Of a DNA stretch of 64,000 nucleotides, positions 42,368 to 59,956 are shown piece by piece (within the stretch, counting starts at the first letter, position 1; each line of letters begins with the position of its first letter). The notes beneath the pieces were generated by a model that had not been told where the DNA came from, searched no databases, and worked only from the letters and a program-made list of their open reading frames with translations. Source of the stretch: Corallococcus coralloides (GTDB lineage: Bacteria; Myxococcota; Myxococcia; Myxococcales; Myxococcaceae). The stretch lies in NCBI RefSeq assembly GCF_004104415.1, contig NZ_CP034669.1; one strand, written 5' to 3'. The translations under genes and the position numbers were made by a program.

Positions 42368-43693
<1,326 letters not shown>

Positions 43694-43779
43694 TTACATT
43701 GGGTCCTCCGGTACGCCGCCGGGCTTCGATTTACCGCGCGTCTTGGGTCGCCGCGCCATTTCCGTTACAAGCCGCCGCC

Positions 43780-45378
43780 ATGTTCAACGTCATCAACGTC
43801 TCCAAGGCCTATGGGCCCAAGAAGCTGTTCGAGGAGGTCAACGTCGCCTTCTCGCCGGGCCGCCGCTACGGCCTGACCGGTCCGAACGGGGCCGGCAAGT
43901 CCACGTTCATGAAGATCCTCGCGGGAGACGAGGAGCAGGACACGGGCGAGATCATCCGCCCCCGCAAGCTGGGCATCCTGCGCCAGGACCACTTCCGCTA
44001 CGAGAACGACCGCGTCATCGACGTGGTGTTGATGGGCAACCGCCACCTGTGGGCGGCGATGGACGAGAAGAACAAGCTGCTCGCCAAGCCGGACATCACC
44101 GAGGAGGACGGCAACCGGCTGGGTGAGCTGGAAGGCGTCATCGCGGAAGAGGACGGCTACTCGGCGGAGAGCGACGCGGCCACGCTGCTGGCCGGCCTGG
44201 GCATCGAGGAGTCCTTCCACGAAGAGCCCATGCGCCAGCTGACGGGCGGCCTGAAGCTGCGAGTGCTGCTCGCGCAGGCGCTGTTCGGCAAGCCGGAGGG
44301 GCTGCTGCTCGACGAGCCCACGAACAACCTGGACATCGACTCCATCCGCTGGCTGGAGAACTTCCTGCATGTGTACGAGGGCGTGCTGATCACCATCAGC
44401 CACGACCGGCACTTCCTGAACTCCATCTGCACGCACATCGCGGACATCGATTACGAGACCATCATCCAGTACACGGGTGGTTACGACGACATGGTCCGGC
44501 AGAAGTCGCAGCTGCGCACCCGGGTCGAGTCCGAGACGGCGGAGAAGAAGAAGAAGATCGCCCAGCTGCAGGACTTCGTGGCGCGCTTCCACGCCGGTAC
44601 GCGCGCGTCGCAGGTGCAGAGCCGCATCAAGCAGATCGACAAGCTGAAGACGGAGGACCTGAAGCGCTCGAACATCGCGCGGCCGTTCATCCGGTTCGAC
44701 CAGAAGGTGGTGAGCGGCCGGCAGACGCTGATGTTCGAGGGGCTGAAGAAGTCCTTCGACGGGGTGCCTGTCATCAAGCCGTTCACGGGCCTGGTCTGCA
44801 AGGGCGAGCGCATCTGCGTGATTGGCCGCAACGCCGTGGGCAAGTCCACGCTGGTGAAGATGCTGGCCGGGCAGCTGGAGCCGGACGCGGGGACCATCAC
44901 CTGGGGCCATCAGGCGACGGTGGGCTACCTGCCTCAGGACCACCACGGCGTCATCCACAAGGGGACGACGTGCTTCGGCTACCTCCGGGAGATCAGCGAG
45001 AAGCTGACGAACGAGGAGATTTCCGGCGTGTTGGGCCGGATGCTCTTCTCGGGTGAGGAGCGGATGAAGGCGACGGACACGCTCTCCGGTGGTGAGACGG
45101 TGCGCGTGCTGTTGTCCAAGCTGATGATCACGCAGGACAACGTGCTGATTCTGGACGAGCCGACGAACCACCTGGACCTGGAGTCCATCGCGGCGCTGGC
45201 GGAAGGCCTGTCGAAGTTCGACGGCACGGTCATCTGCGTGACCCACGACCAGGAGCTCATCTCCGAGGTCGCGACCCGCATCTGGAGCCTGGAGGCGGGC
45301 AAGGACGTGCTCGACTTCAACGGCCCCTACTCCGAGTTCATGGAGAAGCACGCGGACGCGGCGCTCAAGCGCCGGTAG
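43780..45378 (+). CDS. ABC-F family ATPase (two ABC domains, no TMD; Uup/YheS/EttA-like)
   Basis: Start MFNVINVSKAYGPKKLF at 43780; two Walker A 'GPNGAGKST'/'GRNAVGKST', two signatures 'LTGGLKLRV'/'LSGGETVRV', inter-domain linker with KKKK. Confidence 0.9.
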   Translation: MFNVINVSKAYGPKKLFEEVNVAFSPGRRYGLTGPNGAGKSTFMKILAGDEEQDTGEIIRPRKLGILRQDHFRYENDRVIDVVLMGNRHLWAAMDEKNKLLAKPDITEEDGNRLGELEGVIAEEDGYSAESDAATLLAGLGIEESFHEEPMRQLTGGLKLRVLLAQALFGKPEGLLLDEPTNNLDIDSIRWLENFLHVYEGVLITISHDRHFLNSICTHIADIDYETIIQYTGGYDDMVRQKSQLRTRVESETAEKKKKIAQLQDFVARFHAGTRASQVQSRIKQIDKLKTEDLKRSNIARPFIRFDQKVVSGRQTLMFEGLKKSFDGVPVIKPFTGLVCKGERICVIGRNAVGKSTLVKMLAGQLEPDAGTITWGHQATVGYLPQDHHGVIHKGTTCFGYLREISEKLTNEEISGVLGRMLFSGEERMKATDTLSGGETVRVLLSKLMITQDNVLILDEPTNHLDLESIAALAEGLSKFDGTVICVTHDQELISEVATRIWSLEAGKDVLDFNGPYSEFMEKHADAALKRR

Positions 45379-45457
45379 TCAGCACAGCAAGACGAGGCAG
45401 TGCGAACGCCGCCCGTTTCCGGTCCTCCGGAAGCGATGCGGCGTTTTCGTGCGGGTG
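45363..45457 (+). repeat. Direct repeat copy 1 (ABC-F 3' end 'gctcaagcgccggtag' + terminator hairpin 'aacgccgcccgtttccgg...ccggaagcgatgcggcgttttc')
   Basis: Seen directly; 30-nt core 'ggcagtgcgaacgccgcccgtttccggtcc' (45396-45425) identical to 54818-54847; flanks putative island. Confidence 0.8.
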
Positions 45458-45553
45458 TCAATCACCCTCACGGGGGATGCAACCGCGGCGAGGAGTGCGC
45501 CAGAACCTGGGGTGCCAGGTCGTCCCACCCATGACGACCCGGGGGGCACCTCC

Positions 45554-48500
45554 ATGACTCCGCACGACTCGGACCTGCTGAAAGAGCTTCAGCGGCAACG
45601 CACCCGGTTGCTGGATCTGAGCGCAACCAACCGACTCCTCCATTTCAAGCACACGGCCCGGACGTCGCTGCGCCTTGTGGATGAACTGCCAGGTGTTGTC
45701 TTCGAGCGCCTGAGCAACCACCGCGCGCTCACGTTCCTCCCTGTGATGCCGCCGGAGCATGCCTCCTCGGAAGAGGAGGACTTCGACCCTGCCGCCGCGA
45801 CGGTGGTGTTTTCGATGACGGCGGAGGAGGCCCCCAGCAAGGACGCCCGGCAGAAGCTGGTGCTTCAACAGGCGAAGAAGTTGGGCATCGATACCCGGTA
45901 TGATCTGCCCAAGGCGGTCCCTGCAGAGAGCGGCAGCAATCCGCGCAAGCACCAGGACCGCCACATCCAAACGTTGTACTTCCCGGAGGATCTGGAGAGC
46001 CACCTGCACCGCCTCCAGGGCCTCGCGCAAACGGCCATCCAGGAGACCGGGGCCAACCTGCTCCACTTCGTCTTCGGGTTCCTGCGCTGGTACGAGTCCG
46101 GTGACACCCGACAGGAGAAGCCTCGCAGCGCTCCGCTCGTGCTCATGCCGGTGAGCCTCAAGCGCGGCCAGGCGCACCCGGAGACGCGGGTCCACGCCTA
46201 CGAGGTGGACTACAACGAAGGCGAGTCCATCGAAACGAACCTCACGCTCCAGGAGAAGCTGCGGCAGGAGTTCGGCATCACGCTGCCGACCTTCTCCGTG
46301 GAGGATGGCTTGGAGGCGTACTTCGACAAGGTGACGGCGCTGCTCAAGGGCCTGCGCCCTGGCTGGAGCCTGGAGCGGCAGGTGACCCTGACGCTGCTGT
46401 CCTTCGGGCGGCTCCTGATGTGGCGGGACCTGGAGCCCACCCGCTGGCCCCAGAACAGTCCCATGCTGGCGAACCCGCTCGTCCAGACGCTGATGGGAGG
46501 ACAGGCGCATGCGAACGAACTTGGCGGAGGTGGCGGGGGGAGTCGGGAACGCCGGAGCGAGGTCTACGACCTGGACTCGCCAGCAGTGAATCCTCCGCCG
46601 CTCATCACGGACGCGGACAGCAGCCAGCACAGCGTGTTGGTGGACGTGCTCCGAGGCGAGAACCTGGTGGTCCAGGGGCCGCCTGGCACCGGGAAATCAC
46701 AGACCATCACCAACCTCATTGGCGCGGCGCTGGCGGCGGGCAAGACTGTGCTGTTCGTTACGCAGAAGCTGGCGGCGCTGGAGGTCGTCTCACGCCGCCT
46801 CCAGCAGGCGGGGCTCGGCGAGTTCTGCTTGGAGTTACACAGCCACAAGACCCAGAAACAGCAGTTCATGGAGGACCTGCGTCGACGACTCAACCTGGAT
46901 GCGAGCGCGAGCGCCCCTCGCCCGCTCACCGAACAGGTCTCGAGCGCGGCGGGCATCCTGCGCGCGCATACCGAGCGAATGCACAAGCCATTCGGGACGC
47001 TCGGCATGTCACCACACGACGTGTTCTGGAAGGTCAGTCGTGCTGAATCAGAGCTCGGGGAAGCGGTCGTGGAGCTGGAGGGCCTCCGCTTCGAGGGCGC
47101 TGAAGGCATGTCCACCTCTGCTCTGGCGGAGGTTCGCGACGCGGTTCGGAGCCTCGCGGCTCAGCTGGGGGATGTTCGCCGCGTCGCACCCATCCTTAGT
47201 GCTCACCCCTGGGCGGGTGTGACGAACGATGCGCTGACCGACAAGGACCGCCAGACACTCATTCAACGGATCGCCACTTGGGAAGAGTCCGCCCTGCGCT
47301 TGGAGAAAGCGCTGGCGGCCTTCACCGTCCGCACGGGCGTCACGCCCAGGTCGAGCGTGCTCGCGGCGGATGCGCTGGTCTCCAACATCCGGGTCTTGCC
47401 GCGACTCCCGGAGGGGGCTCCCGCGACGCTGGTCCCTGCCCTGCTCGATTCCACGCAGCGCGAGGGATTACGAGCCCTGCTTGATGCCATCGAAGCGGTC
47501 CAGGCGCGGTGGGCGGGGTTGGAAGCGGGCTGGCGCGCCCAGGAGGACCTGACCGCGCCCGCGCTGCGCGATGCGGAAGCCGTCCTCGACATTGCCCTGC
47601 GCCTGCTCTCGCCTGACACCACGCTCGTCACCCTGACGCGCGCGCATGAAGCGGTGGAAGCAGCGGCCCGAGCACTGGCGCAGGCTCGCCGGTTCGTGGC
47701 CGAAGTGGCCTCGTGCCTGGAGGTCGATGTCACGCTCTGGACGCCTCAGCAGCTCCAGACTTTCGCCCGCGTTGTCGAGGCGATGGCCGCCCTGGACGAC
47801 ACCACTTTGGAGTGGCGGGACCCGCGCTGGCTCGATCGCGAAGCCGAGGAGTCACTTCGGAAGGCCGACAGGACCTGCACGGAATTGAAAGAGCAGGCGC
47901 GGGCGCTCGCGGTGCGCTTCATGCCCGAGCTCGTTCCTCCCCTCGCGACGCTCAAGTCCCATGCCGTCGCGGTTGCGACCGCGCCATTCATCCCCTGGCT
48001 CTCGGGCGCATGGCGTGCCGCGCGGCGAGATTTCCAGGCCATGGCCCACGGCGTCCGTCCAACGAGGCCCGTATTGATCCAGGGCTACAACGACCTGCTG
48101 GCACATTACGCGGCACGGGAGCGGCTCCAAGAGGACGCGCCCCTGAAAGCGACCTTGGGCGCCCGCTTCCAGGGAGTCGAGACACGCTTCGACCGAATCC
48201 TTTCGTGGTTGGACGCATACCGGAACATCGATGCATTGCTCCTCACAATGGGCGATCGAGGTTTGGAGCTACGCCGCGCGGTGTTGGAGCGCTCCCCGAG
48301 CCATTGGAGAGAGGTCCTGGCGAAGGTCCGCGCGAAGAGTGATGAACTGCCCCAGGTCCGCGACGTGAGTACCTCCGTGCAAGAGGCCTCGACGCGCATG
48401 GGGCTGCCGCACGCGCCCTGGAACACCGAGCCTTTCGGAAAGGCCCAGGACAGTCTCGACGCCCTGCGGAAGCACCTGGGCGAGGTTCTAAACTGGGCAC

Positions 48501-50752
48501 GGAAGGGAGATGCCCCGCCGTCCCTGACCCTCTCCCAGCTCCAGGGACAGCTGCGCCGGGTGCACGAGGCGTGCGGCGCCACGGACGAACTGGAAGCGCA
48601 CGCTCCCGCAGCGGCCCTGCCAGGGGTGGCCTACCAGGGCCGGAAAACCTCCCTCGCGGGTCCCCGAAGCGTTCTCCGCCATGTTGATGACCTCCTCGCG
48701 GCGCCGCTGCCGGAAGGCTTGGCCGAGTGGCTGCTGCGAGAGGACACGCCACGAAAGCATGCGGACCTGCTCGCCGCCGCGGACGAGTTGGAGACAGCGC
48801 TCTCCGCCTACAGACAGTCCGCCACCCAAGCCTGGGAACTGGGAAGGATGGCCCCGGGCACCTGGGAGGATCACTCCGCCGAGGAACCGCTCCAATGGAC
48901 GGTCTTGCGCCTGCGCCAGGCCCGAAGCCAGTCCGCGACGCTTCCGGCCTGGTGCGCGTATCAACGGCAGCGGCGCGCCGTCGCGCGAGCGCGGAGCACC
49001 GCTGGGTTCTTGGAGCGCGTCGACACACGCCCCGGCCTGGAGCCAGAGCGGCTGGTCGCGGCCTTCGACGCTGTCTTCTTCCGCTCCCTGGCGGAAGCCA
49101 TCCTGCGAAACCAACCGGAGCTCGATCAATTCACGGGCGCCGTCCATGCCTCCCAGCGTGAGGAGTTCGCACGCCTGGACACGCATTGCATCGAAAAGCA
49201 GGGTCGATACCTGGCGCGTCAGCTCAGCCAGCGTCCGGCTCCTCCCGGCGTGTCCTCGGCGAAAGTGGCGGGTATGACGGAGACCCATCTTCTGAGGCAT
49301 GAGCTGGGTAAGAAGCAGCGGCACCTCCCCATCCGTGAGCTGGTGGCACGCGCTGGCAGTGCGCTTCAGACGCTGATGCCGTGTTTCATGATGGGTCCGC
49401 AGTCAGTTGCCCAGTACCTGCCCGCCGGACAGCTGACCTTCGACCTGGTGGTGATGGACGAGGCCAGCCAGATGCGTCCCGAGGATGCACTGGGAGCCAT
49501 TGCCCGAGGAAGGCAGTTGGTGGTGGTGGGCGACCCGGAGCAACTCCCTCCCACCAGCTTCTTCGCCCAGATGGAGCAGGAGGACACAGACTCCAACAAC
49601 GAGACGGGAGACGAGGTCCAGGGCCCGTCCTTCCTGGAGGATTCAGAGAGCATCCTCACGGCGGCGGCGGAGCGGTTCCCCATGCGCATGCTGCGCTGGC
49701 ATTACCGTTCCCGCCATCCCTCGCTCATCGCTTTCAGCAATCGCGAGTTCTACAACGGAGACCTCATCACCTTCCCCGCACCAGGTGAGCAACTGGACGG
49801 GCTGGGACTGCGCTTCCACAAGGTAGACGGAGGATTGTACGAGTCCAACCGAAACGTCCCCGAAGCTCGCGAGGTGCTGGCGAAGGTGAAAGAGCACGCG
49901 CGTACTCGCCCCGAGCAGAGCCTGTTGGTCGTCACGTTGAACTCGAAGCAGCGGGATCTCATCGACGACCTGGTGATTGCCGAGGAGAAGAACGACGTGA
50001 CCCTCCGGGCCTTCCTGGCGAAATGGGAAAAGTCACCCATGCCCTTCAACGTGAAGAACCTGGAGAACGTCCAGGGCGACGAGCGCGACGCCATCTTCGT
50101 GTCGGTCACGTTTGGTCGGAACCAGCAGAAGCAGTTCCGGATGAACTTCGGCCCCATCAACCAAGCGGACGGGTACCGTCGGCTGAACGTGCTCTTCACG
50201 CGGGCGAGATGCGCGCTGACGGTGTTCGCATCGTTCGACCCCTCGGAACTCACGCTCCAGGAAAGCAGCCCGCGTGGGATGCGCGTCCTGCAACGGTACC
50301 TGTCCGAAGCCAAAGGAGAGAAGGTGGCGCACGGCGTGGGGAGCGGCCGTCCACCGGATTCCGACTTCGAAATCGCTGTCGCGAAGGCGCTCGCGGCGCG
50401 GGGCTTCGAGGTGGTTCCGCAGGTAGGCGTCGCGGGCTACTTCATCGACATGGCCCTCCGGCATCCCCAGCAACCGGGCCGATACATTCTCGGTGTCGAG
50501 TGCGACGGCGAGCGGTATCACTCATCGCGCTCCGCACGGGACCGAGATCGGCTCCGGGACCAGGTGTTGAAGGGCCTGGGGTGGAAGCTCCACCGCATCT
50601 GGTCCACGGACTGGTTCCGCTCACCTTCCGAAGAGGTCGCCCGGATCGTCGCGCACGTCGAAAAGCTCCTTCGGGAGGAGGCAACTGAGTTGCCAGCCGT
50701 CGTGCGTGATGCGTCCCAGGTGGAGCACCAGATGCGAGCCGTCAGCGCCTGA
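45554..50752 (+). CDS. Large DUF4011/SF1 (Upf1-DNA2-like) helicase fused to C-terminal Vsr/DUF559(DUF3320)-type endonuclease; candidate defence protein
   Basis: Start MTPHDSDLLKEL at 45554; Walker A 'VVQGPPGTGKSQTITNLI', motif II 'FDLVVMDEASQM', 'VVVGDPEQLPPT', 'NVQGDERDAIFVS', 'NVLFTRAR'; C-terminus 'GYFIDMALRHPQQPGRYILGVECDGERYHSSRSARDRDRLRDQVLKGLGWKLHRIWSTDW' REase-like. Confidence 0.8.
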   Translation: MTPHDSDLLKELQRQRTRLLDLSATNRLLHFKHTARTSLRLVDELPGVVFERLSNHRALTFLPVMPPEHASSEEEDFDPAAATVVFSMTAEEAPSKDARQKLVLQQAKKLGIDTRYDLPKAVPAESGSNPRKHQDRHIQTLYFPEDLESHLHRLQGLAQTAIQETGANLLHFVFGFLRWYESGDTRQEKPRSAPLVLMPVSLKRGQAHPETRVHAYEVDYNEGESIETNLTLQEKLRQEFGITLPTFSVEDGLEAYFDKVTALLKGLRPGWSLERQVTLTLLSFGRLLMWRDLEPTRWPQNSPMLANPLVQTLMGGQAHANELGGGGGGSRERRSEVYDLDSPAVNPPPLITDADSSQHSVLVDVLRGENLVVQGPPGTGKSQTITNLIGAALAAGKTVLFVTQKLAALEVVSRRLQQAGLGEFCLELHSHKTQKQQFMEDLRRRLNLDASASAPRPLTEQVSSAAGILRAHTERMHKPFGTLGMSPHDVFWKVSRAESELGEAVVELEGLRFEGAEGMSTSALAEVRDAVRSLAAQLGDVRRVAPILSAHPWAGVTNDALTDKDRQTLIQRIATWEESALRLEKALAAFTVRTGVTPRSSVLAADALVSNIRVLPRLPEGAPATLVPALLDSTQREGLRALLDAIEAVQARWAGLEAGWRAQEDLTAPALRDAEAVLDIALRLLSPDTTLVTLTRAHEAVEAAARALAQARRFVAEVASCLEVDVTLWTPQQLQTFARVVEAMAALDDTTLEWRDPRWLDREAEESLRKADRTCTELKEQARALAVRFMPELVPPLATLKSHAVAVATAPFIPWLSGAWRAARRDFQAMAHGVRPTRPVLIQGYNDLLAHYAARERLQEDAPLKATLGARFQGVETRFDRILSWLDAYRNIDALLLTMGDRGLELRRAVLERSPSHWREVLAKVRAKSDELPQVRDVSTSVQEASTRMGLPHAPWNTEPFGKAQDSLDALRKHLGEVLNWARKGDAPPSLTLSQLQGQLRRVHEACGATDELEAHAPAAALPGVAYQGRKTSLAGPRSVLRHVDDLLAAPLPEGLAEWLLREDTPRKHADLLAAADELETALSAYRQSATQAWELGRMAPGTWEDHSAEEPLQWTVLRLRQARSQSATLPAWCAYQRQRRAVARARSTAGFLERVDTRPGLEPERLVAAFDAVFFRSLAEAILRNQPELDQFTGAVHASQREEFARLDTHCIEKQGRYLARQLSQRPAPPGVSSAKVAGMTETHLLRHELGKKQRHLPIRELVARAGSALQTLMPCFMMGPQSVAQYLPAGQLTFDLVVMDEASQMRPEDALGAIARGRQLVVVGDPEQLPPTSFFAQMEQEDTDSNNETGDEVQGPSFLEDSESILTAAAERFPMRMLRWHYRSRHPSLIAFSNREFYNGDLITFPAPGEQLDGLGLRFHKVDGGLYESNRNVPEAREVLAKVKEHARTRPEQSLLVVTLNSKQRDLIDDLVIAEEKNDVTLRAFLAKWEKSPMPFNVKNLENVQGDERDAIFVSVTFGRNQQKQFRMNFGPINQADGYRRLNVLFTRARCALTVFASFDPSELTLQESSPRGMRVLQRYLSEAKGEKVAHGVGSGRPPDSDFEIAVAKALAARGFEVVPQVGVAGYFIDMALRHPQQPGRYILGVECDGERYHSSRSARDRDRLRDQVLKGLGWKLHRIWSTDWFRSPSEEVARIVAHVEKLLREEATELPAVVRDASQVEHQMRAVSA

Positions 50753-50765
50753 ACAGGAGACATCC

Positions 50766-52331
50766 ATGACAACGATCATCGCCATTGGCCTGGGCGTGTT
50801 GGGCCTGTTGCTCCTTGGCTTGTGGTTGCGGACGCGAAGCCAGCTCAAGGCCGTCCAGGAACGATTCAAGCCCATCCTGGACCTGGAGGCCGAACGGCGC
50901 CGGGTCGCGGAGGAGTTGACGCAGGCCCGCACGGACGCGACCACGGCGATGGCCGCGGAACAAAAGCGGGTCCAGGACGAACTGGCCAAAGCCCGAAGCG
51001 AAGCGGACAGTGCGCTGGCGGCGGAGCGGAAGCGGGTGGAAACCGAGCTCGCTCGCGCCAAGGCAGACGTGGAGCAGGCCATCTCCGCGGAACAGGGCCG
51101 GGCCAAAGCGGAGTTGAACCGGCTCCGCGAAGAGACGAGCCGGACGACGCAAAGCGCGACGCGCGCCATGGAGGAAGCCGAAGCGCGTCGAAAGCAGGCG
51201 AACACCGAGCGGACCAGCCTGGAGTCAGGCATCGCCCGACTGAAGGCCGAGTTGAAGGCATTGGAGGAAGAGGAGGTCCTGCTCTCATTCGGATTCTACA
51301 AGCCGGTGTATGCGTTGGCGTCGGTCAAGGAGTACGAGGACCGGCTGGAGAGGATCCGCGACTCCCAGAAGCAGATGCTGAAGAACAAGGAAGCCGCCAC
51401 GTGCTCCATTCAGTGGGAGGTGAATGGAAGCAAGGCAGAAGGCAAGAAGCAGATTGACCGGACCTTGAAGCTGATGCTCCGGGCCTTCAACGGCGAGGCG
51501 GACGCGTGTGTGGCGAAGGTGTCCTACAAGAACGTAAAGGCCATGGAGACGCGCATCGAGAAGGCGGCCGCCGCCATCAATGGTCTCGCGGAGATCCAGC
51601 AGTGCGTCATCGCCAGGCGCTACGTCAAGCTCAAGGTCGAGGAGCTGATGCTCGCGTACGAGTATGAGGAGAAGGTGCAGCAGGAGCGTGACGAGCAGCG
51701 CCGGATCCGGGAGCAGATGCGCGAGGAGGAGGCCGCCCAACGCGAGTTGGAGAAGGCGAAGCTGGAGGCGGAGCGCGAAGCGAAGCGCGACGCAGAGGCC
51801 CTGGCCAAGGCAAAGGCGGACTACGAGCAGGCCAAGGGCTCAGAGCAGCAGAGGCTGATGGAGCGCATCGCGGAGCTGGAGCGCCGTGTGGCGGAAGACC
51901 TGGAGAAGCAGCGCGCCATCTCCCAGGCCCAGCTCACCCGGACGGGGCATGTCTACGTCATCTCCAACATCGGCTCCTTTGGAGACGGCGTGTTCAAGAT
52001 GGGAATGACCCGGCGGCTGGTACCCCAGGACCGCATCGACGAGCTGGGAGACGCGTCGGTGCCCTTCGAGTTCGACGTCCACGCCATCATCCGGACCTCG
52101 GATGCCCCGGCCTTGGAAAACGCATTGCACAAGGCTTTCGCGAATCGGCGCGTCAACCGCATCAACGAGCGCAAGGAGTTCTTCCGCGTCAGCCTGGATG
52201 AGATCGCGGAGGCGGTCCGCAAGCATCACGGTGAGTTTGAATTGACCCGGACTGCTGAAGCTGCGGAATACCGGAAGACGTTGGCACTCCAAGAGGGAGA
52301 ACAAGGTCGGCCCAGTGAGCAAGCCGCATGA
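50766..52331 (+). CDS. N-terminal TM + coiled-coil + DUF4041 + T5orf172 (GIY-YIG-like) domain protein; candidate defence protein
   Basis: Start MTTIIAIGLGVLGLLLLGLWL at 50766; 180-aa coiled coil; C-terminus 'GHVYVISNIGSFGDGVFKMGMTRRLVPQDRIDELGDASVPFEFDVHAIIRTSDAPALENALHKAFANRRVNRINERKEFFRVSLDEI' matches T5orf172/MUG113 consensus. Confidence 0.75.
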   Translation: MTTIIAIGLGVLGLLLLGLWLRTRSQLKAVQERFKPILDLEAERRRVAEELTQARTDATTAMAAEQKRVQDELAKARSEADSALAAERKRVETELARAKADVEQAISAEQGRAKAELNRLREETSRTTQSATRAMEEAEARRKQANTERTSLESGIARLKAELKALEEEEVLLSFGFYKPVYALASVKEYEDRLERIRDSQKQMLKNKEAATCSIQWEVNGSKAEGKKQIDRTLKLMLRAFNGEADACVAKVSYKNVKAMETRIEKAAAAINGLAEIQQCVIARRYVKLKVEELMLAYEYEEKVQQERDEQRRIREQMREEEAAQRELEKAKLEAEREAKRDAEALAKAKADYEQAKGSEQQRLMERIAELERRVAEDLEKQRAISQAQLTRTGHVYVISNIGSFGDGVFKMGMTRRLVPQDRIDELGDASVPFEFDVHAIIRTSDAPALENALHKAFANRRVNRINERKEFFRVSLDEIAEAVRKHHGEFELTRTAEAAEYRKTLALQEGEQGRPSEQAA

Positions 52332-52371
52332 ATTATGACCGGCCTGCACTTCTGGTAGCGTTCAGCACTCG

Positions 52372-54102
52372 ATGAACTCCGACCCGTTTTCGCATCCTGC
52401 GGATGCGCTCCCTAATGCTGTCATTGCCGCCTCTCAAACTCGGAAGATCGCGTTTTTGCTAGGCTCCGCCCTGTCGACACAAGAAAGAACTGGCGCCCCC
52501 CAGGTCCCCGGGGTGAACGCGATGCTCGATCTGATCCGCGAGCACGTTCCCGCCCAGTTTCAGGCGAAATTCGATACAGATCGGATTCACATCAAAGACA
52601 ATATCTACCAATGGGCCATGCATTTTCTGCAGGGCCGAGAGGGCAAGCAGGTCGCCGAGAAGGTTGTGAGAGAAGCTGTGCTCCGTGCACGGCTCGACCG
52701 ACAAAGGGATGGCGCCGCAACTGATGCCGAGCTTGATCGGGACTACGACGGATGGGCACTGCCTCCTGCGACTGAGCACCTTGGCAAACTACTGGTGGAG
52801 CAGGCTGACAAATTTGGTCCTGTCTTGACCACGAACTTCGACCCTCTCATCTCCGCGTCAATCAAGATGGCTGGCGGAGATTTTCACCGCACCCTCGTGG
52901 TCAACAACAGTCCTTTTGGGCACACGACTCTATCCTCGAACTCGACACACATTATTCATCTACACGGCTACTGGCACAAGTCACCCACGTTACACTCCGT
53001 CGCGCAGATTGCTCGTGATCGAGATCAAGTCGCCGCAGAGCTTGTTCAGATTCTTCAAAACCACACCCTCGTTGTCGTCGGATACGGCGGCTGGGATGAC
53101 GTCTTCACCAAGACGCTCTCGGCTATCAACGCCAACCCGCATAATGATGTCGACATCCTTTGGGCATTCTACGAAACCGAAGCAGATCACTTGCTTGAGG
53201 CGCGTTATCACCACCTCTTCAGCAAGGTTTCAAACTTAAGGGGCAACACGGGTCTTCGCTGCTACAAGGGCATCAACTGCCACAAGTTCTTTCCTGAACT
53301 TCGAAAACAGTTCGACGCATCCGTTGCCCCGCAGTCGCCCCCTCCCAGCACAGTCCGACAGCCACCGCCGCCATCCATCCCAATCGCCTCGACCACCAGA
53401 GCCCCTGGGCCGGCGACCTCGTCCCCCTCAAGTGCGGCGAAGCCACCCGAGCCAGTGCCCTCCGCGTCGGACCGTCCCGCCTCCCCTTCCGTTCCAAAGA
53501 CGGACGGCACGGGCAGCCCTCCGAAATCAGGCTCCAGGAGAATCCTGCCGTTTGCGGCTGCCGCGCTGATTGCCGGCGGCGTGGCAGCGGTCTGGCCATC
53601 CCCGAGCAAAGGCGTCAGCAATGACGTCTTTGTCGTTCAGACTCCGCGCAATCTGAGACCTGTCGAGCCGCAGCCCCCGACGACGACCGCTCCGGCCCCG
53701 GTACCCGCAAGCACGCTCAGAAGCGTTCGCCAACAACACCAGGTCGTGGCAGCTTCGGACGCCGAACGCGGAACTCGCGTCTCGCAGCTTCCCCGGGGTC
53801 GCTACGCATTTGTGCCGATGAGCGCTCTTCCCACCTACAGCGCGGACACCCCCATCTACGGCCCCATTCAGGAGGGAATCGAGATTCATCGCTCGCGCGC
53901 GGATGGAGCCTTGTATCTCGTAGGCTACGCGGATGCCCCGACCATCGCGGCCCTGGGATATCCGAACCCCGCGCCCATCGTCATTACCCCAACACCCAGC
54001 GGTAGAAGGACGCAGGTCGCGAGCATTTCTGTCTCTCGGATGACCACCGCTGAAGTACGCATGGACAAGGGCACCCGCGTGTTGGTTCTCCACCTCAACT
54101 AA
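52372..54102 (+). CDS. SIR2-like (SIR2_2/DHS-like NAD-binding) domain protein with Pro-rich linker, single TM helix and C-terminal periplasmic domain
   Basis: Ordered motifs 'KIAFLLGSALS' (Rossmann Gly loop), 'VLTTNFDPLI' (TTNYD-like), 'HIIHLHGYW' (catalytic His) with ThsA-like spacing; TM 'ILPFAAAALIAGGVAAVW'; N-terminal 900 nt ~50-53% GC vs ~69% background. Confidence 0.6.
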   Translation: MNSDPFSHPADALPNAVIAASQTRKIAFLLGSALSTQERTGAPQVPGVNAMLDLIREHVPAQFQAKFDTDRIHIKDNIYQWAMHFLQGREGKQVAEKVVREAVLRARLDRQRDGAATDAELDRDYDGWALPPATEHLGKLLVEQADKFGPVLTTNFDPLISASIKMAGGDFHRTLVVNNSPFGHTTLSSNSTHIIHLHGYWHKSPTLHSVAQIARDRDQVAAELVQILQNHTLVVVGYGGWDDVFTKTLSAINANPHNDVDILWAFYETEADHLLEARYHHLFSKVSNLRGNTGLRCYKGINCHKFFPELRKQFDASVAPQSPPPSTVRQPPPPSIPIASTTRAPGPATSSPSSAAKPPEPVPSASDRPASPSVPKTDGTGSPPKSGSRRILPFAAAALIAGGVAAVWPSPSKGVSNDVFVVQTPRNLRPVEPQPPTTTAPAPVPASTLRSVRQQHQVVAASDAERGTRVSQLPRGRYAFVPMSALPTYSADTPIYGPIQEGIEIHRSRADGALYLVGYADAPTIAALGYPNPAPIVITPTPSGRRTQVASISVSRMTTAEVRMDKGTRVLVLHLN

Positions 54103-54108
54103 CTAACA

Positions 54109-54783
54109 ATGAAACTCAAAAATCGTCCCCTTTTCCTTGGTTTGATGTCGCTTCTCTTGCTTGCTGGCTGTGGGCCCGAGGACCTCAACCCTGGTCCCGT
54201 CGACCCCATCGTGGAAGACCCGCCGCTCGAGCAGATCTGCACTGCGGGAAACTGCGCGGGCTGCTGTGACCCGACCACGAAAAAATGCGTCCAGGTTCGC
54301 ACCAACGATGCATGTGGCGCCAATGGCGTCAGCTGCACGAAATGCGCGACGGGCACCATCTGCCATCCATCACAGCAACAGTGCTACACACCTACCATCC
54401 GCGCGAAGATCCGGGCTGTGCGGGCTACAGTCTCCTCCCATGATCCCGCAGATGACAGTGACTGGGATGTCGATGGCTCACCCCCGGACGCCTTGATTCA
54501 GCTGACCTGCCCCAACGCCCAGCCTGCGGTTTCCGAGTCGGAAGAGGTTGAGAGCTTCACCCCCAACTGGACCACGGGGGCGTGTGATGTCCTCGGCACG
54601 GATCTGCTTTCCATGCCTGTCCAGTTCAACGTTCTCGATGTCGACGTTCTCGTCGATGACAATGTTGCGTCAGGCCAGTACCAGTTCACCCAAGCCGACG
54701 TCGATAATGGAGCCGTGGAATTGACGGGCTCCGGTGCTCTGACCTCCGTGGTTTTCCAGCTCACCACCTACTACGCCGACTAG
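54109..54783 (+). CDS. Cys-rich lipoprotein (paralog of 58758..59378)
   Basis: Lipobox 'LLLLAGCG'; 'CTAGNCAGCCDPTTKKCVQVRTNDACGANGVSCTKCATGTICHPSQQQCYTP...DWDVDGSPPDALIQLTCPNA' conserved with 58758 gene. Confidence 0.65.
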   Translation: MKLKNRPLFLGLMSLLLLAGCGPEDLNPGPVDPIVEDPPLEQICTAGNCAGCCDPTTKKCVQVRTNDACGANGVSCTKCATGTICHPSQQQCYTPTIRAKIRAVRATVSSHDPADDSDWDVDGSPPDALIQLTCPNAQPAVSESEEVESFTPNWTTGACDVLGTDLLSMPVQFNVLDVDVLVDDNVASGQYQFTQADVDNGAVELTGSGALTSVVFQLTTYYAD

Positions 54784-54789
54784 GTCGGA

Positions 54790-54881
54790 GCTCAAGAGCG
54801 CCGGTTCCGAGGCTCCAGGCAGTGCGAACGCCGCCCGTTTCCGGTCCATCCGGAAACGAGGCGGCGTTTTCATGCCCGGGT
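54790..54881 (+). repeat. Direct repeat copy 2 (includes 'gctcaagagcgccggt' remnant of ABC-F 3' end + terminator hairpin with U-tract)
   Basis: Seen directly; hairpin 'aacgccgcccgtttccgg-tccat-ccggaaacgaggcggcgtt' followed by TTTTC. Confidence 0.8.
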
Positions 54882-54934
54882 CGACAATGGCTCTACTGCA
54901 ATATGGTGCAGCTCGTTCGGTATGATGCAGGGCC

Positions 54935-56365
54935 ATGTACCCGAGACGCCGTCTTCTGGCCCGTGGACAGTGGCTGTTCGATCTCAGACCGCATCGGCTC
55001 ATCGTCTTCCACGGAGGCGAAGGCGTGCGCCGGGAGGTCAGTGGAGACGTTCCGAATCCTCCGGCCGCACCCGTGGTGCTCGCCGCGCTGGATGAGGCAA
55101 CGAACGTCTGGGTGGGAAGCGGGAATCGGCGTGTCTTTACCGTGGGGGCCAGCGCGAGCGCTCCCGCCCAGGCCTTTCCGCGGGAGTGCTTCGATCTCAC
55201 CTCCGATGGGGACCGGCTCATCGGAACGGTGGTGGACGGCGCCCTCAAGCTGACCACCCTCTTCACGACCGATGGGTCCGGGCAGCAATGGGCGCCCCTG
55301 CCCCTGCCCAAGCCCGTGACCGCCACGCACGGATATGGGTACTCCGAGGGGCGCCCTCCCCGTCAGTCCCCTGATGGGGCGTTCCTTGATACGAGCCCCT
55401 TTGGCATCACCGTCGTGGAGAAGGGCCGGGGCCGCGTCTACGTGCTCCGCCCGGGGGCGGCTCAGCCGGAGGGAGCGCTCCAGATGGAACCGGGCCATGA
55501 GCAGGACATCTGGCGGGCCCAGGCCACTCCCCATGGTGTGCTCCTCCTGCTCGTCATCAACTACCGCCAGACAGCGCTCCTCCACTTCGCGCTCGACGGC
55601 ACCCTGCTCGGCTCCATCCCGGAACAGGATGGTGATGACGATGAGGAAGAGGAACAGACCTGGGGCGGTGCCGGTGTGTGTGTCCTCGACGCGGACCGGG
55701 CGCTCCTCTTCGTCCAGGACAAGGCCCTCCTCGTATCTCTGCCCGGGCTCCAGGTGATCGAAACGCTCGCGGGAGAATGGCCCTCCTTCGTGTCCGTGAC
55801 GCCCGCGGGACCTGACCGGTGGTGGGTGGGCGCCGAGGACAGTGACTCACTCTTCCTGCTCACAGCCGAACCCGGACACCCCTTGCACCTCCATTCCTCG
55901 AACCGTCCGGTGAGCCCGGGCGCGCCGCTCATGCACGTGGGCTACAAGACGCCCGCGATCCACTGGGCCGAGCACACCTCGGCGCCGCTGACCGTGTCCG
56001 CGCCCGTGACCGAGACCTGGCGGGCGGTGGTGCGCAATGACGGGACCGCGTGTGAGGTGGTGCGGATCCGCGTGTCCGGAGTGCTCGTCGGCGCTCGCGT
56101 GGTGGACGTGAGCGTGCGGTATCGCGGCCAGCCGCTCCCGATGGTAGAGGAGCACCGCGTGAACCTCGTGGGGAATACCTCCGGACTGGAGGGAGGGGCC
56201 ACCGCGGAGCTGGAGGTGACCTTCAAGCCCCGGAGCGAGGGCTCGGGACCGCTGACCATCACCGTCGAGCCGTGCTCCTGGCAGTGGCAGGGCAAGGACG
56301 AGCCTCGCGCCCTCGCGGTGACGGGCCATCCGGCATCCGCCCAATTCCTGCTCACGGTGGAGTAG
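54935..56365 (+). CDS. Hypothetical protein (476 aa)
   Basis: Protein-like composition, acidic linker 'DGDDDEEEEQ'; no recognised domain. Start uncertain. Confidence 0.45.
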   Translation: MYPRRRLLARGQWLFDLRPHRLIVFHGGEGVRREVSGDVPNPPAAPVVLAALDEATNVWVGSGNRRVFTVGASASAPAQAFPRECFDLTSDGDRLIGTVVDGALKLTTLFTTDGSGQQWAPLPLPKPVTATHGYGYSEGRPPRQSPDGAFLDTSPFGITVVEKGRGRVYVLRPGAAQPEGALQMEPGHEQDIWRAQATPHGVLLLLVINYRQTALLHFALDGTLLGSIPEQDGDDDEEEEQTWGGAGVCVLDADRALLFVQDKALLVSLPGLQVIETLAGEWPSFVSVTPAGPDRWWVGAEDSDSLFLLTAEPGHPLHLHSSNRPVSPGAPLMHVGYKTPAIHWAEHTSAPLTVSAPVTETWRAVVRNDGTACEVVRIRVSGVLVGARVVDVSVRYRGQPLPMVEEHRVNLVGNTSGLEGGATAELEVTFKPRSEGSGPLTITVEPCSWQWQGKDEPRALAVTGHPASAQFLLTVE

Positions 56366-58227: not shown

Positions 58228-58734
58228 ATGCCGCAGACGGGACGCTCCGGCTGCCCCATCAACCTGACGCTCGAACAGCTCGGCGACCGCTGGAGCCTGA
58301 TCGTCATCCGCGACGTCATGTTCGGGAACCGGCGCAGCTATGGCGACCTGCTCTCGCAGAGTGAGGAGGGCATCGCCTCCAACATCCTCGCGGACCGGCT
58401 CAAGCGCCTGACCGCGTCCGGCCTGCTGTCGCGACGTCCGGATCCGAAGCACCAACAGAAGGGCATCTACAGCCTCACGGAGGCGTCCATCCAGCTGGTG
58501 CCCCTGCTCGCGCACATGGGGGCCTGGGGCCGCCGGCACACGGAGGTGAGCGAGGAGCTGTCGGTGCGCGCGGAGCTGCTGGAGAAGGGCGGCCCGCCGC
58601 TCTGGGATGCGTTCATGGAGGAGCTGCGCCACCTGCACCTGGACGCGCCGCGCCCTACCCGCTCGGTGTTCCGCGAGCTTCAGGCCGCCTATGAGAAGGC
58701 CGTCGCGCGCAACGCTCGGGACGGACGGACCTGA
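58228..58734 (+). CDS. HxlR-family transcriptional regulator
   Basis: 'CPINLTLEQLGDRWSLIVIRDVMFGNRRSYGDLL...GIASNILADRLKRLTASGLLSR' HxlR wHTH; divergent from GST. Confidence 0.8.
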   Translation: MPQTGRSGCPINLTLEQLGDRWSLIVIRDVMFGNRRSYGDLLSQSEEGIASNILADRLKRLTASGLLSRRPDPKHQQKGIYSLTEASIQLVPLLAHMGAWGRRHTEVSEELSVRAELLEKGGPPLWDAFMEELRHLHLDAPRPTRSVFRELQAAYEKAVARNARDGRT

Positions 58735-58757
58735 AGCGGGTAGCGTTCACCGCGCTC

Positions 58758-59378
58758 ATGAAAGTCCTTGGCCGTTGGATGTTCGTCCTGCTGTGCGCGC
58801 TGTGGCTCCCCGCCTGCGGTCCCTACGACTGCAACCCGGAGAACTGCGCGGACGGCTGCTGCTCCGCGCTCAATGAGTGCATCCGCTACCGGAGCGACTC
58901 GGAATGCGGCCCCAATGGCGGCACCTGTGAAGCCTGCGCGGAAGGCAGCGTCTGCCGGCTCGACCAGCGCGTTTGCTACACGGGCGTGATGCGCACCTAC
59001 GTGCAGCCCCGGCGCGCCGTCATCGCGGACGTCGCCCCGGATACGGGCGAGGACTGGGACTCCGATGGCTCCCCGCCGGACGTCGTCGTGGAGATGGAGT
59101 GCCCCTCCGCTCCCGAGCGCTCCCGTACCCCCGAGGACGAGAGCTGGGACCCCGAATGGCGCTCCGGCGGCTGCCAGGTCATCACGTCCAACCTGCTGCG
59201 CTACCCGCTCGAAATCTCCATCTTCGACAACGACGACTTCACCTTCGATGACGGGTTCGGCGGCCTCTCCTACCAGGTCACCCGCGCGGACCTGAGCCTG
59301 GGCCGCATCGAGCTGTCCATCCCGCCCATCGTGAAGACGCTCGTCTTCGACCTGAGCCACAACTACGCGCCGCAATGA
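58758..59378 (+). CDS. Cys-rich lipoprotein (paralog of 54109..54783)
   Basis: Lipobox 'LWLPACG'; 'CNPENCADGCCSALNECIRYRSDSECGPNGGTCEACAEGSVCRLDQRVCYTG...DWDSDGSPPDVVVEMECPSA' same Cys spacing as 54109 gene. Confidence 0.65.
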   Translation: MKVLGRWMFVLLCALWLPACGPYDCNPENCADGCCSALNECIRYRSDSECGPNGGTCEACAEGSVCRLDQRVCYTGVMRTYVQPRRAVIADVAPDTGEDWDSDGSPPDVVVEMECPSAPERSRTPEDESWDPEWRSGGCQVITSNLLRYPLEISIFDNDDFTFDDGFGGLSYQVTRADLSLGRIELSIPPIVKTLVFDLSHNYAPQ

Positions 59379-59417
59379 GGCTGTAACCGCTCCCCCGCCC
59401 CCGGCGTAGTCCTGACC

Positions 59418-59903
59418 ATGCGCGCCCACCTCCTGCCGTACATGGTCCTGTTCGCCGCCGCCTGCGGTCCCTCCTCCTCCGTGGACGAGGGGCTCGGCGT
59501 CGTCCAGGGCATCGACACGTCCGAGACCGGCATCACCGCCTTCGTCCGCTCGGGCCAGTACACCTCCTGGCTCGCGGAGCCCTCGGTCCACGACACGCGC
59601 GCGCCCCATGGCAGCAAGGTCCGCGTGTTCTTCAACGACGTCGTCGCCCAGTCGCTTCGCGACGGCAACGCCACGCACCCCGTGGGCAGCATCCTGGTGA
59701 AGGAGCTCTTCGAGGACGACGGGAAGACGCTCAAGGGCCACGCGCTGGACGTGAAGGTCGCGGAGGGCCCCGGCAAGGACACCTGGATCTTCTACGAGGG
59801 CTTCGGCCCCAGCTACTCCAACAACTACTACGGCCGCGCCCACTCGACCTGCCACGGCTGCCACTCGGACGGGGTGGACTACGTCACCTCCCCCCTGCCC
59901 TGA
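59418..59903 (+). CDS. Small lipoprotein with C-terminal CXXCH motif
   Basis: Lipobox 'LFAAACG'; C-terminus 'AHSTCHGCHSDG' contains CHGCH (CXXCH haem-c-like). Confidence 0.5.
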   Translation: MRAHLLPYMVLFAAACGPSSSVDEGLGVVQGIDTSETGITAFVRSGQYTSWLAEPSVHDTRAPHGSKVRVFFNDVVAQSLRDGNATHPVGSILVKELFEDDGKTLKGHALDVKVAEGPGKDTWIFYEGFGPSYSNNYYGRAHSTCHGCHSDGVDYVTSPLP

Positions 59904-59956
59904 AAATGACGACGGGCGGCCCCCTTCCGAGGACCGCCCGCCGTTGAGCGGCTTGG

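What the first reader, a model, noticed from the sequence alone, without database searches (positions are those of the whole stretch)
50766..52331. Membrane-anchored coiled-coil DUF4041-T5orf172 (GIY-YIG-like) protein
The protein has a single N-terminal TM helix and a ~180-aa coiled coil. The C-terminal T5orf172 domain matches its consensus residue by residue ('YVISN..G..K.G.T.R....R..EL.....P..F.....I.......E..LH..F...R.......EFF.V'). T5orf172/DUF4041 genes recur in phage-defence islands. The start abuts the helicase-nuclease stop (13-nt gap), suggesting co-operation.
Basis: partly seen in the sequence, partly recalled or inferred. Interest (0 to 1): 0.6.

Follow-up and report, generated by a model that had tools for sequence, protein, structure and literature searches.

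The report
Myxobacterial SNIPE membrane nuclease homologue
This gene is a Corallococcus copy of SNIPE (PD-lambda-1), an already characterised membrane-anchored nuclease that cuts phage DNA as it is injected; it is ordinary except that in this lineage it always travels with an Hhe-like helicase-nuclease gene.

Summary
It has an N-terminal transmembrane helix (aa 3-21), a ~150-aa helical stalk, DUF4041, a second helical hairpin, and a C-terminal T5orf172/GIY-YIG domain.

It is a full-length member of the PD-lambda-1/SNIPE family. The PADLOC match has E=1e-152. It is 50% identical to the experimentally studied E. coli SNIPE over DUF4041 through the nuclease, and the catalytic Glu is conserved (E414 = E451 here). 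[quoted passage not shown]

The window is Corallococcus coralloides. The gene lies in a low-GC defence hotspot downstream of an ABC-F gene. An Hhe-like helicase-nuclease sits upstream and a membrane SIR2 plus lipoprotein pair sits downstream.

SNIPE does not generally need the helicase: only 3 of 80 family-wide loci have one nearby, and Myxococcus and other Corallococcus copies stand alone. However, the close helicase clade (56% identity or more) is followed by SNIPE in all 8 sequence-resolved loci, across about three genomic contexts. This is a conserved cassette, but functional coupling is unproven.

Verdict: a new member of a known kind, of modest interest.

The parts
50755..50759 (+). AGGAG ribosome-binding site, 6 nt upstream of the SNIPE start codon and inside the 13-nt gap after the helicase stop codon.
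   Evidence: Read directly from the sequence. The same junction, with an AGGAG or GGGGG site, is conserved in L002, L082, L083, L084, L099 and L100.
50766..52331 (+). SNIPE / PD-lambda-1 homologue, 521 aa (C. coralloides EJ065_4576).
   Evidence: PADLOC PD-Lambda-1 match with E=9.8e-153, covering aa 91-515 against model positions 51-478 of 496. 50% identity to E. coli SNIPE over aa 172-515, E=3e-113. 100% identical to P0001, named as Corallococcus coralloides.
50772..50828 (+). Single N-terminal transmembrane helix (aa 3-21). Only 2 residues precede it.
   Evidence: Kyte-Doolittle mean 2.46. The C-terminal flank has 5 K/R and 1 D/E in 15 residues. The segment is helical in the AlphaFold2 model.
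50832..51287 (+). Helical stalk (aa 23-174). About four 22-residue repeats lie at aa 41-128 (nt 50886-51149).
   Evidence: AlphaFold2 predicts one helix over residues 3-174. Autocorrelation gives z=7.0 at lag 22 and z=5.95 at lag 44. There is a weak profile match to ATP synthase subunit b stalks, E=4e-4. This region does not align with E. coli SNIPE.
51324..51635 (+). DUF4041 ('SNIPE') globular domain (aa 187-290). In E. coli SNIPE this domain binds DNA and phage tape measure protein.
   Evidence: Pfam PF13250 E=3.9e-21. pLDDT is about 90 or higher. [quoted passage not shown] The functional role is taken from PMC13190303.
51636..51944 (+). E/R/K/A-rich helical hairpin linker (aa 291-393).
   Evidence: AlphaFold2 predicts helices at 284-355 and 359-393. 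The segment aligns with the E. coli SNIPE linker.
51945..52244 (+). T5orf172 / GIY-YIG nuclease domain (aa 394-493). The catalytic Glu E451 is codon 52116-52118 and corresponds to E. coli E414.
   Evidence: Pfam PF10544 E=9.4e-18 and PF13455 E=2e-17. Invariant in 30 homologues: Y397, K411, G413, T415, R416, R417, H439, E451, N464, N467. The model shows a beta-beta-alpha-beta-alpha order of elements. The E414 alignment is and the E451 codon.
45554..50752 (+). Context: upstream Hhe-like helicase-nuclease, 1732 aa (DUF4011, SF1 helicase AAA_11/AAA_12, MTES_1575 Vsr-like nuclease). The true start is probably ATG 45554, not GTG 45449.
   Evidence: Pfam domains. PADLOC PDC-S37 1261 bits and Hhe 928 bits. 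NCBIfam Hhe_antiphage 1424.6 bits, below the 2000-bit cut-off, with full-length coverage. Start codon by comparison with homologues of 1724-1740 aa.
45406..45451 (+). Context: conserved GC-rich hairpin followed by TTTTCGTG after the ABC-F stop codon. It is a likely terminator and marks the left border of the variable cargo.
   Evidence: Invariant in 5 Corallococcus loci whether the next gene is the helicase or SNIPE.
52372..54783 (+). Context: downstream pair of a SIR2_2 protein with a putative TM helix (576 aa, 52372..54102) and a Corallococcus-specific lipoprotein (224 aa, 54109..54783). This is a separate module.
   Evidence: The pair is absent from L002, L084, L098 and L100, which keep the helicase and SNIPE. 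It is present in L085, which lacks the helicase.

Best explanation
The gene encodes a Corallococcus coralloides member of the SNIPE (PD-lambda-1) family.

Proposed mechanism:
- A ~150-aa helical stalk built of 22-residue repeats places the DUF4041 and GIY-YIG domains below the membrane. The stalk probably acts as the lineage-specific adaptor.
- When a long-tailed phage injects its genome, DUF4041 binds the incoming DNA and the tape-measure-protein conduit.
- The GIY-YIG domain (catalytic E451) then cuts the DNA at the entry site.
- Membrane tethering keeps the nuclease away from the chromosome.

Shown here: the domain architecture, family membership, conservation of catalytic residues, the position in a variable low-GC defence hotspot, and stand-alone occurrence of close homologues.

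Inferred from E. coli SNIPE experiments: membrane localisation, nuclease activity, cutting during injection, and tape measure protein recognition.

The upstream helicase-nuclease is most likely a separate Hhe-type system. It has been co-inherited with SNIPE as a two-gene cassette in Myxococcaceae and is probably co-transcribed with it here. It adds a second layer of defence rather than being required for SNIPE activity.
For: Family membership:
- PADLOC PD-Lambda-1 match, E=1e-152, near full length.
- Pfam DUF4041 and T5orf172.
- 50% identity to the experimentally studied E. coli protein (L001, annotated PD-lambda-1), with E414 aligned to E451.
- GIY-YIG residues invariant in 30 homologues.
- TM helix and positive-inside flank.
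- The AlphaFold2 model is elongated like published SNIPE (one search compared).
- 104 of 111 close homologues have a TM-like N terminus.

Mechanism, single-gene sufficiency, ManYZ/tape-measure binding and the variable N-terminal adaptor are taken from PMC13190303.

Autonomy of SNIPE:
- Stand-alone SNIPE in M. xanthus, C. macrosporus and Pyxidicoccus.
- SNIPE without the helicase at the same ABC-F hotspot in C. exiguus and C. exercitus.
- 77 of 80 family-wide loci have no helicase nearby.
- Six helicase relatives at 34-52% identity have no SNIPE nearby.
- hhe is active on its own.

Hotspot and horizontal acquisition:
- GC is 0.64 in the cargo against 0.70 elsewhere. GC3 is 0.66-0.84 in cargo genes against 0.89-0.97 in flanking core genes.
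- Identities are discordant between modules.
Against: - No experiment exists for any myxobacterial SNIPE. Myxobacteria may lack the ManYZ partner used against lambda, and the relevant phages are unknown.
- The nuclease domain is modelled with low confidence (pLDDT 40-80), and the whole-model fold search gave nothing.
- The 'separate systems' part is weakened by the cassette data. All 8 resolved members of the close helicase clade are followed by SNIPE with a conserved 13-33 nt junction, in about three neighbourhoods. Helicase and SNIPE distances correlate (Mantel r=0.83, p=0.006).
Confidence: 0.75

Rival explanations
1. In Myxococcaceae the Hhe-like helicase-nuclease and SNIPE form one functional two-gene system. 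SNIPE would make the first cut at the entry site. The soluble SF1 helicase with its Vsr-like nuclease would then load on the new ends and degrade the rest, or the two would otherwise depend on or potentiate each other.
For: - The order, strand and 13-33 nt junction with its own RBS are conserved in 8 loci (window, L002, L082, L083, L084, L098, L099, L100). These span about three neighbourhoods and divergence down to 56% (helicase) and about 66-70% (SNIPE) identity.
- Contig-length matches suggest 2-3 more pairs: P0133 with P0006, P0139 with P0010, and probably P0128.
- No member of this helicase clade was seen without SNIPE.
- The SIR2 module shuffles relative to SNIPE, whereas the helicase stays linked to it.
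- Helicase and SNIPE have similar GC3 (0.81 and 0.84), unlike the SIR2 pair (0.66 and 0.70).
- There is a precedent: the membrane-associated Zorya II system and the helicase-nuclease of Druantia III synergise through shared DNA intermediates (PMC13192584).
Against: - The association is confined to one bacterial family and may reflect one or two historical events.
- Sister SNIPE alleles at the same hotspot lack the helicase (L085, L086).
- Window versus L099 shows SNIPE at 93% but the helicase at 71% identity, which implies recombination inside the cassette.
- Both components are sufficient alone in E. coli.
- The helicase covers nearly the whole Hhe model, so it is not missing a part that SNIPE would supply.
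- In L004 a DUF4011 helicase lies convergent to SNIPE, which looks like island clustering rather than an operon.
Confidence: 0.2
2. The protein is not a defence factor. It would be a mobile or homing T5orf172 endonuclease, or a structural coiled-coil protein. Database names such as 'chromosome segregation ATPase', 'ATPase' and 'AcrA' have been given to homologues.
For: - T5orf172 domains occur in phage homing-type nucleases (literature list).
- Some source annotations of homologues use such names.
Against: - There is no ATPase motif or Pfam ATPase hit.
- The TM anchor plus DUF4041 architecture matches SNIPE full length.
- The gene does not interrupt another gene. It sits between other defence genes in a low-GC hotspot.
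- The alternative names appear to stem from low-complexity coiled-coil similarity.
Confidence: 0.03

Closest known systems
E. coli SNIPE (PD-lambda-1; ECOR26 prophage PhiR26_1, RCP76574.1 / XSB42081.1)
   Same: - Single N-terminal TM helix, helical stalk, DUF4041, helical linker and C-terminal GIY-YIG/T5orf172 domain.
- 50% identity from the end of the stalk to the C terminus.
- Catalytic Glu conserved (E414 / E451).
- Similar length (500 versus 521 aa).
   Different: - The N-terminal ~170 aa do not align. The stalk here is about 40 aa longer and built of 22-residue repeats.
- Only 2 residues precede the TM helix here.
- This copy is chromosomal, in a hotspot of a 70% GC myxobacterium, rather than in a lambdoid prophage.
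- It sits 13 nt behind an Hhe-like gene, whereas the E. coli gene stands alone.
- At the positions where E223K and W257R enhance defence in E. coli, this protein has E261 and M295 (read by hand from the alignment).
Hhe (DUF4011 helicase with Vsr-like nuclease; single-gene system of Gao et al. 2020, cited from my own knowledge and)
   Same: The upstream neighbour has the same domain order and matches the NCBIfam Hhe model over positions 2-1702 of 1797 and the PADLOC Hhe model.
   Different: - It scores below the Hhe equivalog cut-off (1424.6 versus 2000 bits) and scores better on PADLOC candidate PDC-S37.
- It belongs to a Myxococcaceae-restricted clade, about 40% identical to the next relatives.
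- This family applies to the neighbouring gene, not to the finding itself.
Zorya II plus Druantia III synergy (PMC13192584)
   Same: A membrane-associated early-acting nuclease system is genomically linked with a soluble helicase-nuclease effector. The two co-operate through shared DNA intermediates.
   Different: The protein families are unrelated. No synergy data exist for SNIPE with Hhe. This is an analogy only.
F-type ATP synthase subunit b (peripheral stalk)
   Same: An N-terminal single TM helix is followed by a long Ala/Glu/Arg-rich helix with 11/22-residue periodicity. There is a weak profile match, E=4e-4.
   Different: The similarity is probably only compositional or architectural. 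The E-value is marginal and nothing links the protein to ATP synthase.
Phage T5orf172 nucleases (T5 orf172, ICP1 and PLE nucleases)
   Same: They share the T5orf172 branch of the GIY-YIG fold.
   Different: Those proteins are soluble and pair the nuclease with sequence-specific DNA-binding domains. They have no TM anchor and no DUF4041.

Membership tests
SNIPE / PD-lambda-1 | Full-length match to the family profile. | tested here: met
   PADLOC PDLC03977 E=9.8e-153 (aa 91-515 against model 51-478 of 496) and PDLC03976 E=1.4e-151.
SNIPE / PD-lambda-1 | Central DUF4041 (PF13250) domain. | tested here: met
   E=3.9e-21, covering all 56 profile positions. The domain aligns with the E. coli SNIPE DUF4041.
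SNIPE / PD-lambda-1 | C-terminal GIY-YIG (T5orf172) nuclease with the catalytic Glu equivalent to E414. | tested here: met
   PF10544 E=9.4e-18. E451 aligns with E414. E451, R416, R417, Y397 and N464 are invariant in 30 homologues.
SNIPE / PD-lambda-1 | N-terminal membrane targeting. The paper predicts one TM domain in 59% of homologues (7% have two), within the first 70 aa. | tested here: met
   Hydrophobic helix at aa 3-21, Kyte-Doolittle mean 2.46, with a positive-inside flank. This is a sequence-based prediction only.
SNIPE / PD-lambda-1 | Inner-membrane localisation with cytoplasmic DUF4041 and nuclease domains, shown experimentally. | not testable with these tools
   Needs PhoA/LacZ-alpha fusions or fractionation, as in PMC13190303.
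SNIPE / PD-lambda-1 | Cleaves phage DNA during injection and gives direct, non-abortive defence that depends on the catalytic Glu. | not testable with these tools
   Known only for the E. coli protein.
SNIPE / PD-lambda-1 | Functions as a single-gene system. | tested here: inconclusive
   Homologues at 65-72% identity stand alone. However, all 7 members of this allele's own clade are helicase-linked.
Hhe (applies to the neighbouring gene 45554..50752) | DUF4011, SF1 helicase and Vsr-like nuclease in one polypeptide, scoring above the NCBIfam equivalog cut-off. | tested here: inconclusive
   All domains are present. NF042953 scores 1424.6 bits against a 2000-bit cut-off despite near full-length coverage. 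It is best described as Hhe-like / PDC-S37.
   Seen from SNIPE: 3 of 80 family-wide loci, and several myxobacterial loci lack the helicase. Seen from the helicase: relatives at 34-52% identity lack SNIPE. Within the 56%-or-more helicase clade, 8 of 8 loci are paired.
Homing-type T5orf172 endonuclease | A soluble nuclease fused to a sequence-specific DNA-binding domain, inserted in or next to a target gene of a phage or mobile element. | tested here: not met
   The protein has a TM anchor and DUF4041 instead. It lies in a chromosomal defence hotspot and no host gene is interrupted.

The most novel reading that the evidence does not exclude
In Myxococcaceae, SNIPE and a dedicated clade of Hhe-like helicase-nucleases have become a coupled two-gene system. 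The membrane nuclease would nick or cut DNA at the entry port. The soluble helicase-nuclease would use those ends to degrade the genome processively. This clade of helicase may have become dependent on SNIPE-generated ends, which would explain why it was never seen without SNIPE.
Probability: 0.18. Interest if true: 0.55.

Novelty: new member of a known kind. Interest (0 to 1): 0.3.

Why it matters
As a SNIPE homologue the gene adds little. The family was already reported in about a third of well-sequenced bacterial clades, and its mechanism was published in 2026.

Three points give it modest value:
- It is a natural test case for SNIPE in a predatory, high-GC bacterium, where the membrane partner and target phages must differ from the ManYZ/lambda pair used in E. 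coli.
- The strictly conserved helicase-SNIPE cassette is a concrete, testable candidate for synergy between an entry-site nuclease and a helicase-nuclease.
- The stalk made of a variable number of 22-residue repeats suggests that the distance from membrane to nuclease is tuned. The SNIPE paper noted this length variation but did not describe any repeats.

Tried and rejected
- Foldseek of the whole AlphaFold2 model against the PDB gave no hit at E of 0.001 or better. The list was dominated by long-helix proteins and was uninformative.
- A PDB sequence-profile search found no solved SNIPE or GIY-YIG relative, only weak ATP synthase b stalk matches.
- The stalk repeat is not a DNA-level tandem repeat.
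- The sigma-70 promoter and terminator scan of 45200-55100 found 0 promoters, and terminators were at the shuffle expectation. This says little for a myxobacterium.
- NCBIfam has no model that hits the SNIPE protein.
- There are no Rfam families or tRNAs in the window, so no tRNA-linked island border.
It was redone with alignment A2.
- The metagenome scan with the helicase returned only 6 loci.
- The look-up of P0131 failed.
- I considered whether the SIR2 pair, rather than the helicase, is SNIPE's partner. I rejected this because no SIR2 homologue was found in the 80 family-wide loci and the pair is absent from L002, L084, L098 and L100.
- The annotations 'chromosome segregation ATPase', 'AcrA' and 'PulG' on homologues were rejected as coiled-coil artefacts. 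No such Pfam hits were found.
Full report
**1. Observation**

The ORF 50766..52331 (+) translates to 521 aa without interruption. The upstream 1767-codon ORF ends at TGA 50750-50752. The 13-nt gap ACAGGAGACATCC contains an AGGAG ribosome-binding site at 50755-50759. This ATG and RBS are conserved in seven related loci, so 50766 is the true start rather than the in-frame GTG at 50706 listed by the ORF finder.

Residues 3-21 form the only strongly hydrophobic segment (Kyte-Doolittle mean 2.46). They are followed by a K/R-rich flank, which predicts an N-out/C-in single-pass anchor.

AlphaFold2, run with a 30-sequence alignment (mean pLDDT 75), gives these elements:
- one continuous helix over residues 3-174;
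- a confident globular domain at 187-283;
- a helical hairpin at 284-393;
- a beta-beta-alpha-beta-alpha domain at 395-493.

Pfam finds DUF4041 (E=3.9e-21), T5orf172 (E=9.4e-18) and MUG113 (E=2e-17).

- The stalk is about 150 aa, and its main periodicity is 22 residues.

**2. What it is**

Against PADLOC the protein matches PD-Lambda-1 at E=1e-152 over nearly the whole model.

PD-lambda-1 was found in a functional selection in E. coli (PMC9519451). It was renamed SNIPE in a 2026 Nature paper (PMC13190303). That work showed the following for the E. coli protein:
- DUF4041 promotes DNA binding and contacts siphovirus tape measure proteins.
- The GIY-YIG domain (E414) cuts phage DNA during injection.
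- Removing the TM helix makes the nuclease toxic to the host.
- The protein works as a single gene.
- The N-terminal region varies strongly in sequence and length between homologues.

I recovered the E. coli protein itself from phage PhiR26_1, where it is annotated PD-lambda-1 and stands alone between ren and rha-like genes. The window protein is 50% identical to it over aa 172-515 (E=3e-113), and E414 aligns with E451. The first ~170 aa do not align, as the paper leads one to expect.

In alignments of 20 and 30 homologues the GIY-YIG signature residues are invariant: Y397, K411, G413, T415, R416, R417, H439, E451, N464, N467.

The protein is 100% identical to a Corallococcus coralloides hypothetical protein. 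At least 7,900 homologous clusters score E of 1e-10 or better. This is a lower bound, because only the 8,000 candidates sharing most words were scored.

Homologues also occur on 202 plasmid records and 45 phage records.

**3. Surroundings**

The gene order in the window is:
- tgt (42368..43576, minus strand);
- ABC-F ATPase (43537..45378);
- a conserved hairpin terminator (45406-45451);
- helicase-nuclease (true start probably ATG 45554, ending at 50752);
- SNIPE;
- SIR2_2 protein (52372..54102);
- 224-aa lipoprotein (54109..54783);
- ORF476;
- Ser/Thr kinase;
- GST.

The cargo from about 45.45 to 54.8 kb has GC 0.64 against 0.70 elsewhere. GC3 is 0.66-0.84 in cargo genes against 0.89-0.97 in the flanking core genes. 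This points to a horizontally acquired defence hotspot.

The helicase has DUF4011, SF1 helicase and MTES_1575 domains. It matches PADLOC PDC-S37 and Hhe, and the NCBIfam Hhe model over almost its full length, though below the equivalog cut-off. hhe is a validated single-gene system whose nuclease-site mutant loses activity.

**4. Test of the 'co-operation' idea**

*Family-wide.* A scan of one genome per GTDB species returned the 80 best SNIPE loci with up to 10 kb of flank. A tblastn search with the window helicase found a relative in only three:
- L002, a syntenic Corallococcus locus;
- L004, where the helicase is convergent to SNIPE and only 41% identical;
- L017, a weak match.

No SIR2 homologue was found in any of the 80 loci.

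*Close SNIPE relatives.* The cargo downstream of the ABC-F gene varies between Corallococcus genomes:

| Loci | Cargo at the ABC-F hotspot |
|---|---|
| window, L083, L099 | helicase, SNIPE, SIR2, lipoprotein |
| L002 | helicase, SNIPE |
| L085 | SNIPE, SIR2, lipoprotein |
| L086 | SNIPE, DUF3800 |

L082 (C. sicarius) carries the same helicase, SNIPE, SIR2 and lipoprotein cargo. In its 8-kb upstream flank an IS66 transposase and a hydrolase gene, not ABC-F, precede the helicase.

In M. xanthus, C. macrosporus and Pyxidicoccus the gene stands alone next to a serine dehydratase gene. SNIPE therefore does not need the helicase.

Module identities are discordant. Window versus L085 gives SNIPE 72% and SIR2 84%. 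Window versus L082 gives SNIPE 86%, helicase 68% and SIR2 55%.

*Seen from the helicase.*
- Six metagenomic relatives at 34-52% identity have no SNIPE in the available flanks.
- The close helicase clade is different. Fourteen clusters at 56-93% identity are all from Corallococcus or Myxococcaceae where a source names the organism, and the next relatives drop to about 40%.
- Every resolved member is followed by SNIPE on the same strand, with a 13-33 nt gap and an RBS. These are the window, L002, L082, L083 and L099 (four of them directly downstream of ABC-F), L084 and L100 (a GerE/haem-oxygenase neighbourhood in two arrangements), and L098 (a Tox-PAAR/NorB neighbourhood).
- Contig-length matches suggest more pairs.
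- Pairwise helicase and SNIPE identities correlate (Mantel r=0.83, p=0.006). One clear exception is window versus L099, with SNIPE at 93% and the helicase at 71%.

*SNIPE tree.* In a neighbour-joining tree, seven helicase-linked alleles form one clade. This clade is sister to the helicase-less L085 and L086 alleles. L098 falls elsewhere.

*Reading.* This is a long-lived two-gene cassette restricted to one bacterial family. That fits co-inheritance within defence islands, but it does not exclude a functional link.

**5. Mechanism**

Most likely (confidence about 0.75) the protein works as E. coli SNIPE does. It would be tethered to the membrane and auto-inhibited towards host DNA. At the injection site, DUF4041 would contact the DNA and tape measure protein, and the GIY-YIG domain would then cut.

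Only the architecture and residue conservation are shown here. The activities are inferred from PMC13190303.

The stalk probably acts as the lineage-specific adaptor. It resembles ATP synthase b stalks only weakly (E=4e-4). It is built of 22-residue repeats. Among 112 homologues the N-terminal length takes values such as 123, 145, 167 and 153, 175, 198, which are steps of about 22 residues.

The helicase is probably co-transcribed with SNIPE. There is no terminator between them, and the region just downstream of the ABC-F terminator is shared by loci whose first cargo gene is the helicase and loci whose first cargo gene is SNIPE.

The rival reading, a coupled helicase-SNIPE system (about 0.2), is made plausible by the Zorya II / Druantia III precedent.

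**6. Comparison and novelty**

This is a new member of a known kind. All sequence-testable defining features of SNIPE are met. The experimental features cannot be tested here.

Differences from the type protein:
- a longer, repeat-built stalk;
- almost no periplasmic N terminus;
- chromosomal hotspot carriage;
- the conserved helicase partner.

Interest is modest, at 0.3.

Noticed in passing
window 52372..54102 (+) and 54109..54783 (+): A possibly uncharacterised envelope-associated SIR2 pair.

- The 576-aa protein has an N-terminal SIR2_2 domain, a Pro/Ser-rich linker, one putative TM helix (aa 391-409, Kyte-Doolittle 1.87) and a ~150-aa C-terminal domain with no Pfam hit.
- Six nucleotides downstream lies a 224-aa lipoprotein (lipobox LAGC, Cys-rich, C2-like) with only 6 homologues, all in Corallococcus.
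- The SIR2 domain has 879 relatives at the 50%-identity cluster level, but only about 8 share the full-length architecture.
- The lipoprotein has no PADLOC hit.

   Followed up: partly
window 50886..51149 (aa 41-128 of the SNIPE homologue); proteins P0001-P0120: The stalk is made of about four 22-residue repeats with the pattern AAE(R/Q)(K/R)RVxxELxxA(R/K) (z=7.0 at lag 22). Homologues differ in N-terminal length in steps of about 22 aa (123/145/167 and 153/175/198). Lag 11 or 22 is the best period in 57 of 106. The SNIPE paper reports variable N-terminal length, and a text search of it found no mention of coiled coils or sequence repeats.
   Followed up: partly
window 45406..45554: The ORF finder's GTG 45449 start for the helicase lies inside the conserved ABC-F terminator hairpin. 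Comparison with homologues puts the real start at ATG 45554, giving 1732 aa.
   Followed up: yes
window ~45450..54800; loci L002, L083, L085, L086, L099 (L082 has the same cargo but no ABC-F in its flank): This is a defence hotspot downstream of the ABC-F terminator in Corallococcus, with at least four cargo variants. SNIPE is the constant element. The helicase, the SIR2-lipoprotein pair and DUF3800 come and go. Two C. exiguus strains differ by presence of the helicase and carry different SNIPE alleles (93% versus 71% identity to the window).
   Followed up: partly
L004:10001-16494 and L017:10001-15728: There are two further, independent adjacencies of a DUF4011-type helicase with a SNIPE homologue. 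In a Myxococcaceae MAG the two genes are convergent, tail to tail (helicase 41% identity). In a Bdellovibrionaceae MAG a weak relative (28%) lies downstream.
   Followed up: no
L082-L100 gene tables; phage and plasmid hits H1-H50: Newer Pfam labels already name PF13250 'SNIPE'. Many deposited homologues are still called 'ATPase', 'AAA-ATPase', 'chromosome segregation ATPase', 'AcrA' or 'putative regulatory protein', for example Corynebacterium phage Poushou gp33 and Clostridium phage CDMH1 gp42. Homologues are common on Klebsiella plasmid records of about 110 kb (113 of the 202 plasmid records are Klebsiella) and occur in Klebsiella phage records, with the same 48.8% match.
   Followed up: no
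window 54935..56365 (+) and 58689..60497 (-): Two sizeable ORFs (476 aa and 602 aa) have no Pfam or PADLOC hit. ORF476 is conserved (86% identity) next to the Ser/Thr kinase in L085 and L086, but no homologue was detected by tblastn in the fetched parts of L082 and L083.
   Followed up: no
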